A stretch of DNA of 64,000 nt, taken from Escherichia phage RB43. Below, piece after piece: positions 36,445 through 61,870 of this stretch. Each line of letters begins with the position of its first letter. Position 1 is the first letter of the stretch. The translations under genes and the position numbers were made by a program. The notes beneath the pieces were generated by a model. It ran no database searches. It was not told the origin of the DNA and was given only the letters and a program-made list of their open reading frames with translations. The stretch lies in the sequence record NC_007023.1, one strand, 5' to 3'.

Positions 36445-36912
36445 TTATCCGTCATAACCGCCACCGCACTTAACCTCACCTTCAATGAACAGTTCGCGGT
36501 TGTCTCTCAAAAGATTGTATTTCTTTTCGAGTTCCGGCCCGAATGCGTCAGCGTCTTCATAATAGCTATAATTATAACAACCGCATTCATCATCCCATTC
36601 AGGTTCATCACCGCGTTCGTTGAAGTGTACGACTTTGAGATCGTCAACTCCAGACTCTTTCATTTTATCCCAGATATACCGGATGTCAACGCTATGGTAA
36701 CTGAATGCTTCAAGGGTGATGTTATCACCATCGATTTGAGGGATACCCCATTTAGGACGTTGGTCATCGGTGATGATATCAAGCAAAGATTCTACGTTTT
36801 CGTGTCCGTAAATCTTCGCGACCTCTTCCTCTTTACCAGGACGAACAAGCCCGATCCCGATAATAAAGCTACTGCTTGAACTGTTACTTACAAAACCAGA
36901 ACGGATCTTCAT
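36445..36912 (-). CDS. Acidic protein, paralog A of MKIRSGFVSNSSSSSF family (155 aa)
   Basis: First 16 residues identical to ORF 40362-40844; Glu/Asp/Tyr/Cys-rich remainder. Confidence 0.6.
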   Translation of the reverse strand: MKIRSGFVSNSSSSSFIIGIGLVRPGKEEEVAKIYGHENVESLLDIITDDQRPKWGIPQIDGDNITLEAFSYHSVDIRYIWDKMKESGVDDLKVVHFNERGDEPEWDDECGCYNYSYYEDADAFGPELEKKYNLLRDNRELFIEGEVKCGGGYDG

Positions 36913-37754: not shown

Positions 37755-39974
37755 TTACAGTTTAACTTCTTTTTCTTCCAGAACGATTTCGCAATCGAAT
37801 GTTGCACCTTCCCAGAATTTATGCGGGATAATGTCAGTCGCTTTAACCGATACTTTGGTTTCTTCAAAATCCAGATCCGCAAACCAGGCGTGGCCTACAA
37901 CGATACCATACATTACACGGCTCAGGCGCTTGTTCAGTGCGCGTACTTCGTTGATGGTTGCCTTTGTTTCTTTATCAAGGTACTCGATTACCTTATCCTT
38001 GTCAAGCGCTGCGAGTTCAGCTTTAACAGAATCGTAAGCCCACAGGATGATCAGGTCGCCGTTGTTCAGTTTCTTCTTACCTTCGGCACGTTTCGCAACG
38101 GTTGCCGCTACAGCAGGAAGGGAGGAAACACCCTTGATTTTCAGATTCAGTTCTTTCGACATATAAACATCAGTCGAATCGGTACTGGTTACTTTCGGGG
38201 AGAATCCATAATCACGAATACCCTGTTCAGATAACCATTCACCAGCGGCTTCACCGTATTTCTGTTTCAGACCTTCGGCATTACGTAAACCGATCGCGTC
38301 GTCACGGAAGAACTTCATCACCTTCTGGCGACCTTTCAGGATTTCCAGACGGATAGAGTCGTTTACATACTCTTTACCGGAGATCCCGCGAGTCATCGCA
38401 CGGTTAACCAGGGGCAGACTGGTAAAGTCAACCAGTACCGACATGCGGTCTTCACCGATTTTTGCCAGCGGCTTGATAGTCAAACCAGAAGCGCGAAGGT
38501 TTTTCAGTGTCGGAATATCAGTTTCCAGCGGCAGAACCTTAACGTTTACGATACCGTCTTTAACGATGGTAAAGTTACGTACCTGCTTAGTTTCGATCTG
38601 TTCAGGCAGTTTCAGTTCTTTCTGTTTGCTTTCTGGGATAGTTACGTAACCCATCAGATCCGTGTTAATGGAAATGTTAGGACGTGAACTGTTACCGACC
38701 AGGTGCTTAACCGATACTTTGGTTGTAGTCTGGGTAAATTTCGGTGTCCAGATTTCATGCGTTACCATTTGCGCCGCAAGTGCTTTGCGTTCTTCCGGTG
38801 TTTTCGCGTTTGCAATCTGTTCAGACAGTTGATCCAGAGTATCATCTTCTTTCTGTACCGTCTGACGGCCTGTGCGGTTGTACGCCCAGTGTTCAGAGGA
38901 CAGGTCGATCACAGTGTCGGTTTCTGCCAGCAGTTCGAGAGCGTCAACCAGAGTGAACGCGTTTTCGTCTGGAACCATGTTGTAATCAACACCATCGAGC
39001 AGACGTTTAGCCGGATCAACTACCGCTTCCGCGATCAGGTCTTTCGCGTTGGAATAGTCCTGTTTGGTAAAGCAGTTATCATACGCCTTAATCAGACGAA
39101 CATCACCCAGCTTTTTCAGCACTTTCCATGCAAGGTCAGGGTTCATTGTGTGTAGCGCATGATACAGCACGACATACAGAACCTGTTCACCTTCCAGAGT
39201 AGCCGGATCGAAACCGTCGATGTCGTTGATTGCGTTATCACCCAGCGCCCAGATGTTTTTGATGTGCTCAGGAACCAGAACAACACCGTTTGCAGCGTTC
39301 AGGACATACACACGCCCTTCGTCCAGGTAGATAGCATGGGTTGCGTCAGCAACTTTAACTTCGACGCGAGCGGAGGTTTGCGCGGTGATGATTTCAGCAA
39401 ATGCTGGCTCGTATGCGTCGAAACCTTCAACGAATTTATGCAATGCGTTGGTTGCTTCTGCCATTTTTTCCAGCAGAGGACGGTTAACATAATAGCCGTA
39501 TTCCAGGAATGCAATGCTGTTAAACGTCAGCGGGAGAACCGCACACGCTTTCAGGATGTCATCGGTACGCCAGCAGTTATCATAACCATCAGTCAGGAAG
39601 ATCAGGCTGTTCAGGTTGCCGTTTTCGGATTGCAGGTCGGTTGCGATTTCAGCAGCCAGATTCAGTGGTTCAACAAAACCAGTACAACCAGTAGGTTTCA
39701 GATAACGGTCGATCGCGGTACAGATATTGGTCAGATCCGATACGTTGCTAACCTTCTCACCACGGAACACAGTACCGTAATCGCCTTTGCTGGAGAAGTA
39801 CAGGATCGAAACGGTGTCATCCTGTTTAACCAGACTCGCCAGGTTTGCTTTCAGGTGCTTACGGATCTTCGGCAGTTCGTTATACATTGAACCGGAAACG
39901 TCGCAAACGAAAACGTGGTTGGTCGGAGTCGGCTTAGATACTGCGTTTTTGAATTCGATATTTGTAATTGACAT
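37755..39974 (-). CDS. Large vWA (MIDAS-containing) domain protein, 739 aa
   Basis: N-terminal vWA with DxSxS MIDAS motif (HVFVCDVSGSMYNELPKIRKHL...ILYFSS...FLTDGYDN); about 530-aa C-terminal region unrecognised. Confidence 0.7.
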   Translation of the reverse strand: MSITNIEFKNAVSKPTPTNHVFVCDVSGSMYNELPKIRKHLKANLASLVKQDDTVSILYFSSKGDYGTVFRGEKVSNVSDLTNICTAIDRYLKPTGCTGFVEPLNLAAEIATDLQSENGNLNSLIFLTDGYDNCWRTDDILKACAVLPLTFNSIAFLEYGYYVNRPLLEKMAEATNALHKFVEGFDAYEPAFAEIITAQTSARVEVKVADATHAIYLDEGRVYVLNAANGVVLVPEHIKNIWALGDNAINDIDGFDPATLEGEQVLYVVLYHALHTMNPDLAWKVLKKLGDVRLIKAYDNCFTKQDYSNAKDLIAEAVVDPAKRLLDGVDYNMVPDENAFTLVDALELLAETDTVIDLSSEHWAYNRTGRQTVQKEDDTLDQLSEQIANAKTPEERKALAAQMVTHEIWTPKFTQTTTKVSVKHLVGNSSRPNISINTDLMGYVTIPESKQKELKLPEQIETKQVRNFTIVKDGIVNVKVLPLETDIPTLKNLRASGLTIKPLAKIGEDRMSVLVDFTSLPLVNRAMTRGISGKEYVNDSIRLEILKGRQKVMKFFRDDAIGLRNAEGLKQKYGEAAGEWLSEQGIRDYGFSPKVTSTDSTDVYMSKELNLKIKGVSSLPAVAATVAKRAEGKKKLNNGDLIILWAYDSVKAELAALDKDKVIEYLDKETKATINEVRALNKRLSRVMYGIVVGHAWFADLDFEETKVSVKATDIIPHKFWEGATFDCEIVLEEKEVKL

Positions 39975-40221: not shown

Positions 40222-40361
40222 AGAAAATAAATCGAACGGTAATGGGAGGTGCTGTTCAATCGTTACAGGTTCCCCCAGCTTGTGCGCTTTCAGGGGTTGC
40301 CCCTTTCGCGTATGTCAGTTCTGTTTTCATCAGTGGTGACTCTTTTGATGTATATTCAAGG

Positions 40362-40844
40362 TTACGGAAAGATGTTTCCATGTTCCAGTTGGGTTCCAAT
40401 CGGGCCGCACTCGTCAGAGTACGTAAACTCGTAGATAAACACGCCGTTTTGATTCCCGTACTTCGTGTTGTATTCTTCATACAGCCACATCTTGATCAGA
40501 GCGTCTTTCTCTTCGGTTTCTAAATCGTACCAATCCCGACCATCATATGCAAGCGCAATTTGCGGATTTGAACGATAACGGGTTTCGGCGCTGTCTTCGG
40601 TTTCCCAATCATAACGCTTATCATCATAATACGATTCAAAGCTATTACCCATGTGACCGCCTAAGTCACGGTGAACGTGTTGAACAACTTCTTCGGATGT
40701 CAGCGGAGGATTATAATAACCGCAATTGGGAGAACAATCACCCATCATTTCGCGAAGGTTGTCGATATCAATCGGATCTTTCGGGAACCGGACGATAAAA
40801 CTACTTGATGAACTATTGCTCACAAAACCAGAACGAATTTTCAT
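40362..40844 (-). CDS. Acidic protein, paralog B of MKIRSGFVSNSSSSSF family (160 aa)
   Basis: Identical 16-aa N-terminus to ORF 36445-36912; acidic, Tyr/Cys-rich. Confidence 0.6.
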   Translation of the reverse strand: MKIRSGFVSNSSSSSFIVRFPKDPIDIDNLREMMGDCSPNCGYYNPPLTSEEVVQHVHRDLGGHMGNSFESYYDDKRYDWETEDSAETRYRSNPQIALAYDGRDWYDLETEEKDALIKMWLYEEYNTKYGNQNGVFIYEFTYSDECGPIGTQLEHGNIFP

Positions 40845-51711: not shown

Positions 51712-52200
51712 GATAAATCTACCGTTTTCATGTTAACGTAGGGATCGAAATGTACCACGATGATTGGATAGTCGCCAGTGGCCTTATCAATGATGTCATA
51801 GATGCGCATCCAATCGCCCCCAGCAAGCCCCGCACCAATAAGAGGGGTAACGATAGGCAATTGAACAGGACACGCCTTAGCGCGTTCTACAGCAGATTTG
51901 AAGCATGATTCAATCGCATCATAATCGACTTGTGGGCCTTCACCCCAAAATTTGTATTGGGTGTACGCGTTAAACAGAAGTTTGTTTCCGTCCTGATAAA
52001 CGGAGTTACGCCCCAACTTAGATTGATTGCCCTTCATCGTCATTGCGTCTTCTTTAAACGCACCAGGGATCTTTTTCTTCACTTCTTTGGCGATACCCGC
52101 GCCCATGTTACCAGAAACCAGTTACCACCCCATGAATTAGGTGTACATCGCGATTAAGGAACAGTTCAACCGCGTTACCTTTGATTTCTTTAATGATCAT
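51708..52200 (-). CDS. TARG1/OARD1-like macrodomain protein, interrupted by a frameshift
   Basis: N-terminal 30-codon ORF (MIIKEIKGNAVELFLNRDVHLIHGVV...) then +1 frame MGAGIAKEVKKKIPGAF... resembling the TARG1 CRMGAGIAVLFKKKFG core; frames join if one T is removed from sense GGTTTC or a 7-nt unit from GTTACCA-GAAACCA-GTTACCA. Confidence 0.6.
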
Positions 52201-57431: not shown

Positions 57432-57827
57432 TTATGCAAGTTCAATATGCGGTGCGTCGATGAATTTTGTTTCGATCGGAAGATTAGGATCATTCTTCCA
57501 GTTGATACCGAAACGCAGTTTCACACCGAGTTCATCACCAGCTTTTTTCATTGCATTCAGAACAGGCAACCACACTTTCGGGTTTTTCTGCCAACCTTCC
57601 GGCAGTTTGCTAGGATACAGATCCACAGCATCGCCTGTAATGTGTTTTGAATTCATGGTTTGTGACGCGCCAGTGCGAACGTATTCGCGTTGCTGTTCGA
57701 CGGTACGCAATCCTTCACGTACACCGAAATCTTCTGGGGATAGCTCCAGAGCGCGTTGTACAACCTTAACCAGTTCAGGTTTAACACCTTTCAGGTTATT
57801 GATACTTTTTTTGGCTAATTTAAACAT
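57432..57827 (-). CDS. Endolysin, peptidase M15 family (L-alanyl-D-glutamate peptidase-like)
   Basis: 131 aa; zinc-binding pattern SKHITGDAVDL ... DAPHIE typical of M15/VanY-like phage endolysins. Confidence 0.6.
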   Translation of the reverse strand: MFKLAKKSINNLKGVKPELVKVVQRALELSPEDFGVREGLRTVEQQREYVRTGASQTMNSKHITGDAVDLYPSKLPEGWQKNPKVWLPVLNAMKKAGDELGVKLRFGINWKNDPNLPIETKFIDAPHIELA

Positions 57828-57893
57828 ACATACCTCTTTATGAAAATACCCTATGGGTTACACAGGGTATTTACGGTTTAAGAGGCGCAACGA

Positions 57894-60432: not shown

Positions 60433-60715
60433 ATTTGAGAGTATTCATATAACCGATGATGTATTCAACAACAGCATCGCGTTCTTCTTCACATTCATAT
60501 CCACCCCACGTTACCGACTGATTATGTGCTAAATGAAACGTAATCGCAGGTTTCCATGTTTTGTTAATACAAGGAATTTTAGCGTCGGTCTGAATCCATA
60601 AAACGTGCTCTACGTTAACAGGATAGTTAACACATTCCACCTCTGCGTTACTATTGTATACAAAATGGTCTGCGTATAAACGTTTATACGATTTAATTTC
60701 TGACACAATAATCAT
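60422..60715 (-). CDS. hypothetical protein (97 aa)
   Basis: ORF. Confidence 0.45.
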   Translation of the reverse strand: MIIVSEIKSYKRLYADHFVYNSNAEVECVNYPVNVEHVLWIQTDAKIPCINKTWKPAITFHLAHNQSVTWGGYECEEERDAVVEYIIGYMNTLKYGG

Positions 60716-60835
60716 TTTAACTCCACTGCATAAACATCGGTTTCAGGGGCTTTGTGTACGCGCATATCTTTACCACATACCGCATAAGCCGGACAGTTGC
60801 GACAACCGTTATGATCCGTGTTGCCTGTCAGTTCT

Positions 60836-61870
60836 TTACGGAACTGTTTTGTTCGCGGGTGTTCCCAGATATCTTTGATAAAAATCATCTGCTTCCAGAA
60901 CGTTCAAACCTTCGCCCCAGCCACCTTCAACCCAACGTTCGGTAAACGAGCAAGGGAAGAATTCGCCTTTTTCGTTGATGTAAGAGCTAAACATCGTCGC
61001 TTCGCAATCTTCCGCATACTGCTTGTATTGTTCGAAGTTCGGGTGTCCCTCCATCGCTTCAACGAAAGCGGGTGCTGAACAACTATCGAATCCAAATCCT
61101 ACACCAGAATCGAGGCAATATTCAACAAGTTTTTTGTATTGTTCGCGGGTGACGGTATCCCAGTTCTTACCGCGTCCCTTTTGTTTCAGACCCAGGAACA
61201 CGATCGCATTGACTTGTTTCAGGCGTGGATCGTTACGCACGGCATCAACAACGGTAAACGCATCATCATAGGTCTTTGAGCTAACCATGAAATGTAGGTT
61301 GATTTGCTGTTGTCCTGCTTCTGCCAGGTTCGCTACGGAATCGAAAGCAACATCGAAGCCAGCATGTTTATACACCGATACCGCAACAGCCCCAGCAACC
61401 GCCGCTAAACGCGCTGCAACGTCTTTTGATACATCAGCAATGGTAAGGTTCGGCACAATGCCTTTAGAACGCGCATAGGCCATCATATCAAACATATCAG
61501 GGTTTGTTTGTCCCTGTGCATCAGCACCGAGTGCGCATTGGGTTAACCAGGGCATTTTATCAATGATGGATTTGAAAGAAGCGAGATCCATATTGTAGCC
61601 GTTCGGGTTATTGGACTTGTAACAGAACCCACACAGCTTACCAGCAGGACCGTTGCATTTGGTAGTGACCTCAATATCGAGAATCTCAGGGAATGGGGCA
61701 TAAGTCGGATCGTTGTCAAAGGTTGTACCCCAACGAGCAAACTGACCAGTTTTAACGTTGAAATCGTAATTGTACCATTTGGATCTAGCGTGGCGCATAT
61801 CTCCAGCCTGGTAGATAAACAACGTAGGCGCTTTCATAACAGTATGTGCATTATTCATAATATTTCTCAA
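60836..61870 (-). CDS. Cys-rich candidate Fe-S / radical-SAM-like enzyme (344 aa)
   Basis: Cx8CxxC cluster in IEVTTKCNGPAGKLCGFCY plus C-terminal Cys cluster (GFDSCSAP...DCEATMF...FFPCSF); assignment tentative. Confidence 0.4.
   Translation of the reverse strand: MRNIMNNAHTVMKAPTLFIYQAGDMRHARSKWYNYDFNVKTGQFARWGTTFDNDPTYAPFPEILDIEVTTKCNGPAGKLCGFCYKSNNPNGYNMDLASFKSIIDKMPWLTQCALGADAQGQTNPDMFDMMAYARSKGIVPNLTIADVSKDVAARLAAVAGAVAVSVYKHAGFDVAFDSVANLAEAGQQQINLHFMVSSKTYDDAFTVVDAVRNDPRLKQVNAIVFLGLKQKGRGKNWDTVTREQYKKLVEYCLDSGVGFGFDSCSAPAFVEAMEGHPNFEQYKQYAEDCEATMFSSYINEKGEFFPCSFTERWVEGGWGEGLNVLEADDFYQRYLGTPANKTVP

What the first reader, a model, noticed from the sequence alone, without database searches (positions are those of the whole stretch)
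60836..61870. Cys-rich 344-aa protein with candidate 4Fe-4S / radical-SAM-like motifs
The protein has an N-terminal Cx8CxxC cluster (TTKCNGPAGKLCGFCY) plus a C-terminal Cys cluster reminiscent of auxiliary Fe-S (SPASM/twitch-like) domains. If it is a radical enzyme, candidate roles include nucleic-acid base modification, antiviral-nucleotide countermeasures or cofactor maturation. The spacing is not the canonical CxxxCxxC, so this is tentative.
Basis: inference. Interest (0 to 1): 0.5.

Follow-up and report, generated by a model that had tools for sequence, protein, structure and literature searches.

The report
Phage radical-SAM enzyme with tagged partners
The flagged gene is a real but frameshift-truncated radical-SAM iron-sulfur enzyme of phage RB43, and across many large phages and some bacterial defence islands it sits beside small proteins that all begin with the same 16-residue serine-rich tag, which is probably what it chemically modifies.

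The parts
60712..61858 (-). Full radical-SAM/SPASM-derived gene (381 aa once one T is removed). It equals RB43ORF169c plus the downstream 58-aa ORF.
   Evidence: PHROG 7293 spans both ORFs. An intact 1146-nt CDS is present in RB43-GVA, GuL6 and Miller.
60836..61870 (-).
60880..60884 (-). T5 homopolymer (A5 on the + strand) holding one extra base. It causes the +1 frame change after ...EADDF.
   Evidence: The alignment with RB43-GVA and GuL6 shows T4 there. It is one of 27 single-base indels against 4 substitutions in 31.6 kb.
61679..61858 (-). N-terminal all-beta extension (about residues 1-60, motif YNYxFNxxTGxFxRWG). It is conserved in phage and cellular homologs and is a candidate substrate-binding domain.
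   Evidence: DSSP strands E9-46 in the model. F33 and G38 are invariant in A4.
61622..61657 (-). Cx7Cx2C (C68, C76, C79 in RB43-GVA numbering): predicted ligands of the SAM-binding [4Fe-4S] cluster.
   Evidence: Invariant in A1 and A4. Coordinates. Spacing variation.
60950..61081 (-). Three invariant auxiliary-cluster cysteines (C260 in GFDSC, C285, C303 in PCSF).
60775..60804 (-). Cx2Cx5C remnant of the SPASM motif, encoded in the shifted frame. The middle Cys (60793-60795) is the fourth invariant auxiliary Cys.
36445..36912 (-). Tag protein A (155 aa), beginning MKIRSGFVSNSSSSSF. Candidate substrate.
   Evidence: no Pfam or NCBIfam match
40331..40844 (-). Tag protein B (170 aa in RB43-GVA). 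In the window the ORF stops early at 40362 because of indels at 40343 and 40368. It begins MKIRSGFVSNSSSSSF. Candidate substrate.
   Evidence: phrog_7397, unknown function. In the AF2 model the tag is flexible.

Best explanation
The gene encodes a radical-SAM enzyme of the SPASM/twitch clade. C68/C76/C79 would hold the [4Fe-4S] cluster that reductively cleaves SAM to a 5'-deoxyadenosyl radical. C260/C285/C303/C355 would hold an auxiliary cluster. The radical would abstract a hydrogen from a residue in the exposed N-terminal tag M-K-x-R-x-G-F-V-S-N-S-S-S-S-S-F carried by a family of small, acidic, otherwise hypervariable proteins, two of them in RB43. The result would be a covalent post-translational modification, most likely a C-C or C-O cross-link or a serine side-chain oxidation. 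The conserved all-beta N-terminal extension of the enzyme probably docks the tag in place of a RiPP recognition element. The enzyme-tag pair also occurs in bacteria, in several cases next to an Avs2-like STAND NTPase or SIR2-HerA, so it probably belongs to phage-host conflict, with the phages having multiplied the tagged proteins. Shown: the fold, the conserved cysteines, the frameshift, the tag family and its tight gene linkage. Inferred: Fe-S and SAM chemistry, the tag as substrate, the type of modification and the biological role. The 344-aa form in this window is an artefact of a one-base insertion.
Confidence: 0.6

Rival explanations
1. The enzyme acts on a small molecule, nucleotide or DNA base (the first reader's ideas: base modification, antiviral-nucleotide countermeasure, cofactor maturation), and the tag proteins are functionally unrelated neighbours.
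Against: The best structural and profile neighbours are peptide- or protein-modifying SPASM enzymes. The only conserved neighbour across 66 lineages is the tag family. KP15 DNA is restriction-sensitive although KP15 carries the gene, and the authors found no DNA-hypermodification genes. No nucleotide-metabolism partner is conserved.
Confidence: 0.15
2. The enzyme modifies some other protein (host or phage), and the tag is an unrelated signal, for example a targeting, packaging or stability signal shared by early proteins that cluster in the same hyperplastic genome region.
For: Constant N-terminal tags on variable phage proteins are known as capsid-targeting sequences in T4 internal proteins (own knowledge). 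In RB43 the tag genes are 20-24 kb away. Phage early regions are co-oriented and gene-dense.
Against: A one-to-one, abutting tag-gene/enzyme-gene pair is conserved in bacterial chromosomes of several phyla, outside any phage early region. Tag density decays with distance from the enzyme gene on both sides. Only 93 tag-bearing stretches exist in 185,579 genomes, and 49 of them hold the enzyme within 8 kb.
Confidence: 0.15
3. The RB43 copy is a genuine pseudogene, or uses programmed +1 frameshifting at UUU-U, rather than being mis-sequenced.
For: The window sequence as given has T5 and two overlapping ORFs. UUU U is a slippery context.
Against: RB43-GVA and GuL6 have T4 and an in-frame 1146-nt CDS, and phage Miller and the other relatives are annotated or aligned as one intact gene. 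The window shows 27 single-base indels, mostly in homopolymers, against only 4 substitutions relative to RB43-GVA. In both genes examined the GVA version restores the family-wide protein. No relative conserves the shift site, so it is not programmed.
Confidence: 0.05
4. The enzyme is an activase that installs a glycyl radical on Gly6 of the tag (R-x-G-F resembles the RVxG[FYW] glycyl-radical motif).
For: R4, G6 and F7 are invariant. The resemblance to the glycyl-radical fingerprint is from own knowledge only.
Confidence: 0.03

Closest known systems
SPASM/twitch radical-SAM peptide and protein maturases (SuiB, SkfB, PqqE, CteB, anSME)
   Different: No curated model is passed; all NCBIfam equivalogs score far below cut-off. 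The N-terminal domain is all-beta, not a winged-helix RRE. The phage lineage has Cx7Cx2C, GAD instead of GGE and an eroded SPASM. The presumed substrates are 70-220-aa folded proteins with an N-terminal tag, not short leader-core peptides.
HXS antiphage system (HxsA/B/C/D; Nat Commun 2026, PMC13128918)
   Same: Radical-SAM enzymes mature a protein effector through a modification inside a Ser-containing motif, in a phage-defence context.
   Different: HXS has two paired radical-SAM enzymes plus HxsD, and the motif is a His-Xaa-Ser repeat. Here there is one enzyme and a single N-terminal tag. The HxsC model scores 22.7 bits against a cut-off of 267.9. This family is found mainly in phages.
FxSxx-COOH peptide / FxsB radical-SAM-SPASM module of STAND-linked conflict systems (Kaur et al., eLife 2020, PMC7159879)
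   Same: An F-x-S-containing motif, a SPASM radical-SAM enzyme and an adjacent STAND NTPase. The tag contains F-V-S, and the cellular cassette has an Avs2-like NACHT protein.
   Different: The Fxs motif is at the C-terminus and is released by a peptidase. The FxsB model scores 12.3 bits against a cut-off of 370. No vWA-MoxR ternary components are present in the cellular cassette.
[quoted passage not shown]
   Same: This is the same gene. The window is the original RB43 record.
   Different: Those annotations rest on similarity only. None mentions the frameshift, the tag family or the cellular cassette.

Membership tests
Radical SAM superfamily | Three-cysteine motif (CX3CX2C or a variant) for the SAM-binding [4Fe-4S] cluster | tested here: met
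   Cx7Cx2C in RB43. The three Cys are invariant. Family spacings are x3, x6, x7, x8 and x11-15, with canonical x3 in cellular homologs. Variant spacings are documented for the superfamily (PMC9477430).
Radical SAM superfamily | Partial (beta/alpha)6 TIM-barrel core | tested here: met
   [not shown]
Radical SAM superfamily | GGE-type SAM-binding motif | tested here: inconclusive
   The aligned position reads ALGADA (G-A-D) in phage enzymes and ALGGGNP in cellular ones. The Gly is invariant.
Radical SAM superfamily | Pfam PF04055 gathering score (29.5 bits) | tested here: not met
   The RB43 ORF scores 11.9 bits. The cellular homolog L212 scores 57.3 bits, so the family belongs but the phage branch is too derived for the model.
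Radical SAM superfamily | Reductive cleavage of SAM to 5'-deoxyadenosine | not testable with these tools
   Needs anaerobic reconstitution.
SPASM domain | Seven-Cys signature including Cx2Cx5Cx3C plus a final Cys (two auxiliary clusters) | tested here: not met
   RB43 has Cx2Cx5C only, and most other phage members keep only a Cx2C pair or a single Cys. Cellular homologs have the complete signature. TIGR04085 scores 24.7 bits against a cut-off of 27 for the intact RB43-GVA protein. The relatives P0001 and P0003 carry precomputed PF13186 hits.
Twitch domain (single auxiliary cluster) | Three or four conserved Cys after the barrel, with a beta-hairpin, binding one [4Fe-4S] cluster | tested here: inconclusive
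   Exactly four C-terminal Cys are invariant family-wide (C260, C285, C303, C355). The profile's best PDB sequence hit is BtrN at E 0.004. Cluster stoichiometry cannot be computed.
RiPP maturase with RiPP recognition element | N-terminal winged-helix RRE domain | tested here: not met
   Residues 1-60 are five beta-strands with no helix.
RiPP maturase with RiPP recognition element | Adjacent gene(s) for a precursor with a conserved recognition segment and a variable remainder | tested here: met
   The tag family is adjacent in 60 of 66 lineages. However, the products are 70-220-aa proteins with a folded body, so this is protein maturation rather than a classical RiPP.
HXS system | HxsB/HxsC paired enzymes, HxsD, and HxS repeats in the effector | tested here: not met
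   There is a single enzyme and no HxS repeats. HxsC model: 22.7 bits against 267.9.
Viperin / pVip | Viperin-specific C-terminal extension and a score above the curated cut-off | tested here: not met
   NF038283: 47 bits against a cut-off of 180, core region only. The PADLOC pVip hit covers only residues 47-191. The protein has a SPASM-type C-terminus instead.
Anaerobic sulfatase-maturating enzymes (anSME/AtsB) | Substrate motif (C/S)-x-(P/A)-x-R | tested here: not met
   [not shown]

The most novel reading that the evidence does not exclude
A previously undescribed, widespread phage-host conflict module. A dedicated SPASM-type radical-SAM maturase installs a covalent modification on a universal 16-residue N-terminal handle (MKxRxGFV[S/T]NSSS[S/T]SF) shared by hundreds of hypervariable acidic small proteins. 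Bacteria carry it as a one-enzyme, one-substrate cassette, coupled in several genomes to an Avs2-like STAND NTPase (a candidate new defence system). Large phages have captured it and multiplied the tagged proteins, up to nine per locus, as effectors, decoys or anti-defence proteins.
Probability: 0.4. Interest if true: 0.85.

Novelty: new variant of a known kind. Interest (0 to 1): 0.65.

Why it matters
If the tag is the substrate, this would be the first case, as far as these searches show, of a virus-encoded radical-SAM enzyme maturing a whole battery of its own proteins through a shared N-terminal handle. It would give a function-defining clue for hundreds of 'hypothetical' early proteins in T4-like and jumbo phages. 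The bacterial version, next to an Avs2-like sensor or SIR2-HerA, would be a candidate new defence system and a second example, after HXS, of radical-SAM-matured protein effectors in immunity. The invariant, exposed 16-mer makes the question directly testable with co-expression and mass spectrometry. It could also yield a portable enzymatic protein-tagging chemistry. Practically, the result shows that the reference RB43 record carries many homopolymer indels that truncate or split genes.

Tried and rejected
- Single-sequence and profile searches of PDB sequences gave only a weak BtrN hit.
- Pfam and NCBIfam on the window ORFs were sub-threshold.
- Pfam-annotated neighbours in five divergent contigs (PNKP, Rnl1, Thg1, ligase, methyltransferases and others) were not conserved between loci, so they were dropped as functional partners.
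The 44-aa profile search returned only short fragments and gave no usable family size.
- The first DNA pattern had too few fixed bases.
- The ~140-aa cellular partner is not a paralog of the tag protein.
- Ophion, a radical-SAM defence system, is a different three-gene system.
- The KP15/KP27 'unknown DNA modification' does not correlate with the gene.
- Programmed frameshifting was rejected.
- Co-occurrence in the phage database (171, 172 and 173 records) is real but reflects one clade, so it carries little independent weight.

Full report
**1. The observation**

- The ORF listing finds a 344-codon ORF at 60836..61870 on the minus strand, starting at TTG. Its translation contains TTKCNGPAGKLCGFCY.
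- The spacing is C-x7-C-x2-C, not x8. The ORF has 8 cysteines.
- The TTG overlaps the stop of the upstream gene. The annotated start is the ATG at 61858, which gives the 340-aa RB43ORF169c of the public RB43 record.
- The window is the original phage RB43 (Pseudotevenvirus) sequence: it is 99.8% identical to the two RB43-GVA records.

**2. The ORF is truncated by a one-base insertion**

- PHROG 7293 has a 384-position profile. It matches this ORF at positions 2-341 (E 8e-232) and the next 58-aa ORF, 60712..60888 in another frame, at positions 329-384 (E 5e-33).
- The 1251-nt query aligned to 1250 nt of RB43-GVA. The difference is an extra T in a T-run at 60880-60884: T5 in the window, T4 in RB43-GVA and GuL6.
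- RB43-GVA, GuL6 and Miller annotate one CDS of 381-384 aa. Its C-terminus reads ...EADDFIKDIWEHPRTKQFRKELTGNTDHNGCRNCPAYAVCG...
- Over the 31.6 kb shared with RB43-GVA, the window has 27 single-base indels, nearly all in homopolymers, against only 4 substitutions.
- Three of these indels lie at or just beyond the 3' end of a second gene discussed below. There too the GVA version restores the family-wide protein.
- This is a sequencing-error signature, not programmed frameshifting or a clade-wide pseudogene.
- The truncation removes the fourth conserved auxiliary cysteine. It also hides the SPASM signal: the intact relatives P0001 and P0003 carry a precomputed Pfam SPASM hit, and the truncated RB43 entry does not.

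**3. What the protein is**

- The RB43 ORF fails Pfam Radical_SAM (11.9 bits against 29.5). The downstream fragment narrowly fails SPASM (18.2 against 21.5).
- An AlphaFold2 model of the 384-aa relative P0003, built from a 31-sequence alignment, has pLDDT 93 and pTM 0.90.
- Across 31 phage-type homologs, the three N-terminal Cys and four C-terminal Cys are invariant.
- Adding five cellular homologs (22-30% identity) keeps the same seven Cys invariant. These cellular homologs show the ancestral state: CxxxCxxC, ALGGGNP and a complete Cx2Cx5Cx3C...C SPASM signature. They pass Pfam Radical_SAM (57 bits) and SPASM (34 bits).
- The phage branch is derived. It has a loop inserted between the first two Cys (x6, x7, x8 or x11-15, against x3 in most cellular members), GAD in place of GGE, and an eroded SPASM (Cx2Cx5C in the RB43 clade, and only a Cx2C pair or a single Cys in most other phage members).
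- Variant first motifs, including CX7CX2C, are documented in the superfamily (PMC9477430).
- NCBIfam's nearest models for the cellular homologs are peptide maturases (MftC, WgkB, GeoRSP, ScmE, PqqE). All score far below their cut-offs. Only the generic SPASM domain model is passed, and only by two of the three cellular homologs.
- This is therefore a distinct, uncurated family of the SPASM clade. It has a conserved all-beta N-terminal extension (YNYxFNxxTGxFxRWG) rather than a winged-helix RRE.

**4. Distribution**

- There are 2,532 homologs at E<=1e-3, mostly on metagenomic contigs of phage size.
- Among 50,697 sequenced phages, 171 records carry the gene. Apart from Vibrio phage D479 and one other record, they are RB43/KP15/Miller-type phages of Enterobacteriaceae.
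- Annotations there range from 'hypothetical' to 'radical SAM protein', 'SPASM domain-containing protein' and 'Fe-S oxidoreductase'. [quoted passage not shown]

**5. The conserved neighbour: an N-terminal tag family**

- I clustered same-strand ORFs around the gene in 92 loci. The only neighbours conserved outside the RB43 clade were small proteins sharing one N-terminus.
- The consensus is M-K-[I/T/V]-R-x-G-F-V-S-N-S-S-S-S-S-F.
- Of 243 regex hits, 216 have a start codon exactly six codons upstream. R4, G6, F7, V8, S15 and F16 are near-invariant although the regex did not require them. The Ser positions use both AGY and TCN codons, so selection acts on the peptide.
- Using only loci retrieved through the enzyme, and dereplicating at 70% enzyme identity, 60 of 66 lineages have at least one tag gene within 5 kb.
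- Tag-gene density per lineage is 0.83 and 0.80 per kb at 0-1 and 1-2 kb downstream, falling to 0.28 at 4-5 kb. Upstream it is 0.23 per kb at 0-1 kb and 0.05 or less beyond 2 kb.
- All 332 tag genes in 137 loci are co-oriented with the enzyme gene, and 60 start within 500 nt of its stop. Up to nine occur in tandem.
- Reciprocal test in viruses: a DNA pattern for the tag retrieved 119 viral stretches (capped; median 7.7 kb held), and 45 of them contain the enzyme gene.
- Reciprocal test in prokaryotes: in 185,579 prokaryotic genomes the pattern occurs in only 93 stretches, and 49 of them contain the enzyme gene within 8 kb.
- Cultured Vibrio phage D479 has five tag genes within 12 kb upstream of its enzyme gene.
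- RB43 has two tag genes on the same strand, 20-24 kb away: 36445..36912 (155 aa) and 40331..40844 (170 aa in RB43-GVA; truncated in the window). They flank a 739-aa vWA protein.
- In the phage database these two proteins occur in 172 and 173 records of the same genera as the enzyme. That is a single clade, so this point adds little.

**6. Properties of the tag proteins**

- 577 unique sequences were collected. Their median length is about 132 aa.
- The parts after residue 20 fall into 200 BLAST clusters (152 singletons) among 558 proteins. They are acidic, with a median net charge of -11.
- They have no Pfam, NCBIfam or PADLOC match. PHROGs lists only families of unknown function.
- No paper contains the motif.
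- The cellular 137-aa subfamily has 140 clusters; every named member is called 'hypothetical' or 'uncharacterized'.
- phmmer with RB43 tag protein B finds 837 representatives at E<=1e-3 among 1.84 billion.
- The AF2 model of tag protein B is confident overall (pLDDT 88). Residues 1-10, the most conserved part, have a mean pLDDT of 47. The fold begins with a strand at residues 13-20. This is the behaviour of an exposed linear motif read by a partner.

**7. The cellular cassette**

- The cassette is found in Acetatifactor muris, Veillonella parvula, Lachnobacterium bovis, a Lachnospiraceae MAG, Verrucomicrobiota and Sulfuricurvum.
- A single tag gene (MKIRNGFVTNSSSTSF...) lies immediately upstream of, and overlapping, the enzyme gene.
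- In the isolates and several other genomes it is preceded by a ~140-aa protein and a ~950-aa protein with a trypsin-like domain plus NACHT (PADLOC Avs2, E 9e-16).
- In the Firmicutes examples it is followed by a ~310-aa protein. In Sulfuricurvum, SIR2 and HerA follow instead.
- This is a defence-island context.
- Precedents exist. The HXS antiphage system uses radical-SAM enzymes to mature a protein effector within a Ser-containing motif (PMC13128918). FxSxx peptides with a SPASM enzyme occur in STAND-linked conflict systems (PMC7159879). Membership in either is excluded by motif, gene content and model scores.

**8. Mechanism and rivals**

- Most likely (confidence about 0.6): a radical-SAM protein maturase whose substrate is the exposed N-terminal tag. 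The chemistry is not determinable here. Candidates are a cyclophane-type or other cross-link involving F7-V8-S9 or S15-F16, or serine oxidation as in AtsB/anSME.
- Small-molecule, nucleotide or DNA targets are less likely. No such partner gene is conserved. KP15 (restriction-sensitive DNA) and KP27 (resistant DNA) both carry the gene.
- The reading of the tag as an unrelated signal is weakened by the one-to-one cellular pairing.
- A glycyl-radical activase role is unlikely on spacing, exposure and fold grounds.

**9. Limits**

- There is no biochemistry.
- The scans were capped and only flanks were held, so genome-wide co-occurrence is not quantified.
- The co-orientation statistic is weak in phage early regions.
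- In the RB43 clade the genes are not adjacent.

**10. Verdict**

- The length, the spacing and the suggested roles are not.
- The gene itself is already annotated as radical SAM in relatives.
- The enzyme-tag module and its bacterial counterpart appear undescribed. They make this a new variant of a known kind and an experimentally tractable lead.

Noticed in passing
window 32394-64000 (e.g. 35775, 40293, 40343, 40368, 41207, 52112-52128, 57812-57837, 60880): Relative to resequenced RB43-GVA, the window has 27 single-base indels (mostly homopolymers) and only 4 substitutions in 31.6 kb. Several other ORFs in this window are probably artificially split or truncated.
   Followed up: partly
window 37755-39974 (-): A 739-aa von Willebrand factor A protein (Pfam VWA, VWA_2 and VWA_3 just above threshold; phrog_2426, unknown function) lies between the two RB43 tag genes. 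vWA proteins recur in conflict systems, but homologs were seen in only a few other loci (L106, L123, L187).
   Followed up: partly
[not shown]
   Followed up: partly
window 36445-36912 (-): The C-terminal half of tag protein A hits phrog_132, labelled 'head-tail adaptor' (E 3e-10), and some GenBank records copy that name. The label looks doubtful for a tagged, acidic early-region protein.
   Followed up: no
L212, L228, L242, L245, L253, L268, L275 (Firmicutes); L240 (Verrucomicrobiota); L260, L267 (Sulfuricurvum): A conserved bacterial cassette: an Avs2-like trypsin-NACHT protein, a ~140-aa protein, the tag protein, the radical-SAM/SPASM enzyme and a ~310-aa protein with an M1E1E6-like domain. 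In Sulfuricurvum it is followed instead by SIR2 and HerA. It matches no complete PADLOC system and may be an undescribed defence system.
   Followed up: partly
L221 (NZ_JBHSCL010000010.1, 'Flagellimonas marina', 178,077-bp contig): This contig encodes near-identical copies of both RB43 tag proteins and has the size of an RB43-like genome. It is probably a phage contaminant or carried phage in a marine Bacteroidota assembly.
   Followed up: no
H47 (Cronobacter phage leB), Klebsiella phage Kpn35c1 (PMC9960720), L306 21124-21852 (Vibrio phage D479): The enzyme gene is a recurrent target or neighbour of homing endonucleases. It is split in two pieces in leB, split by a GIY-YIG gene in Kpn35c1, and has an HNH-type homing endonuclease immediately downstream on the opposite strand in D479.
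   Followed up: no
L007 3924-6007; L004/L005 2294-3127; L306 3008-6661: In several divergent phages the module lies near RNA-repair genes (PNKP, T4-type RNA ligase 1, Thg1-like). These are not conserved across loci, so this is probably just early-region neighbourhood.
   Followed up: partly
tag proteins, all loci: Several tag-protein clusters also share short C-terminal endings (…GTRxC, …AGRNG/EGRDG/GGYDG, …SHH). This hints that the N- and C-termini meet in the fold or that a second recognition element exists.
   Followed up: no
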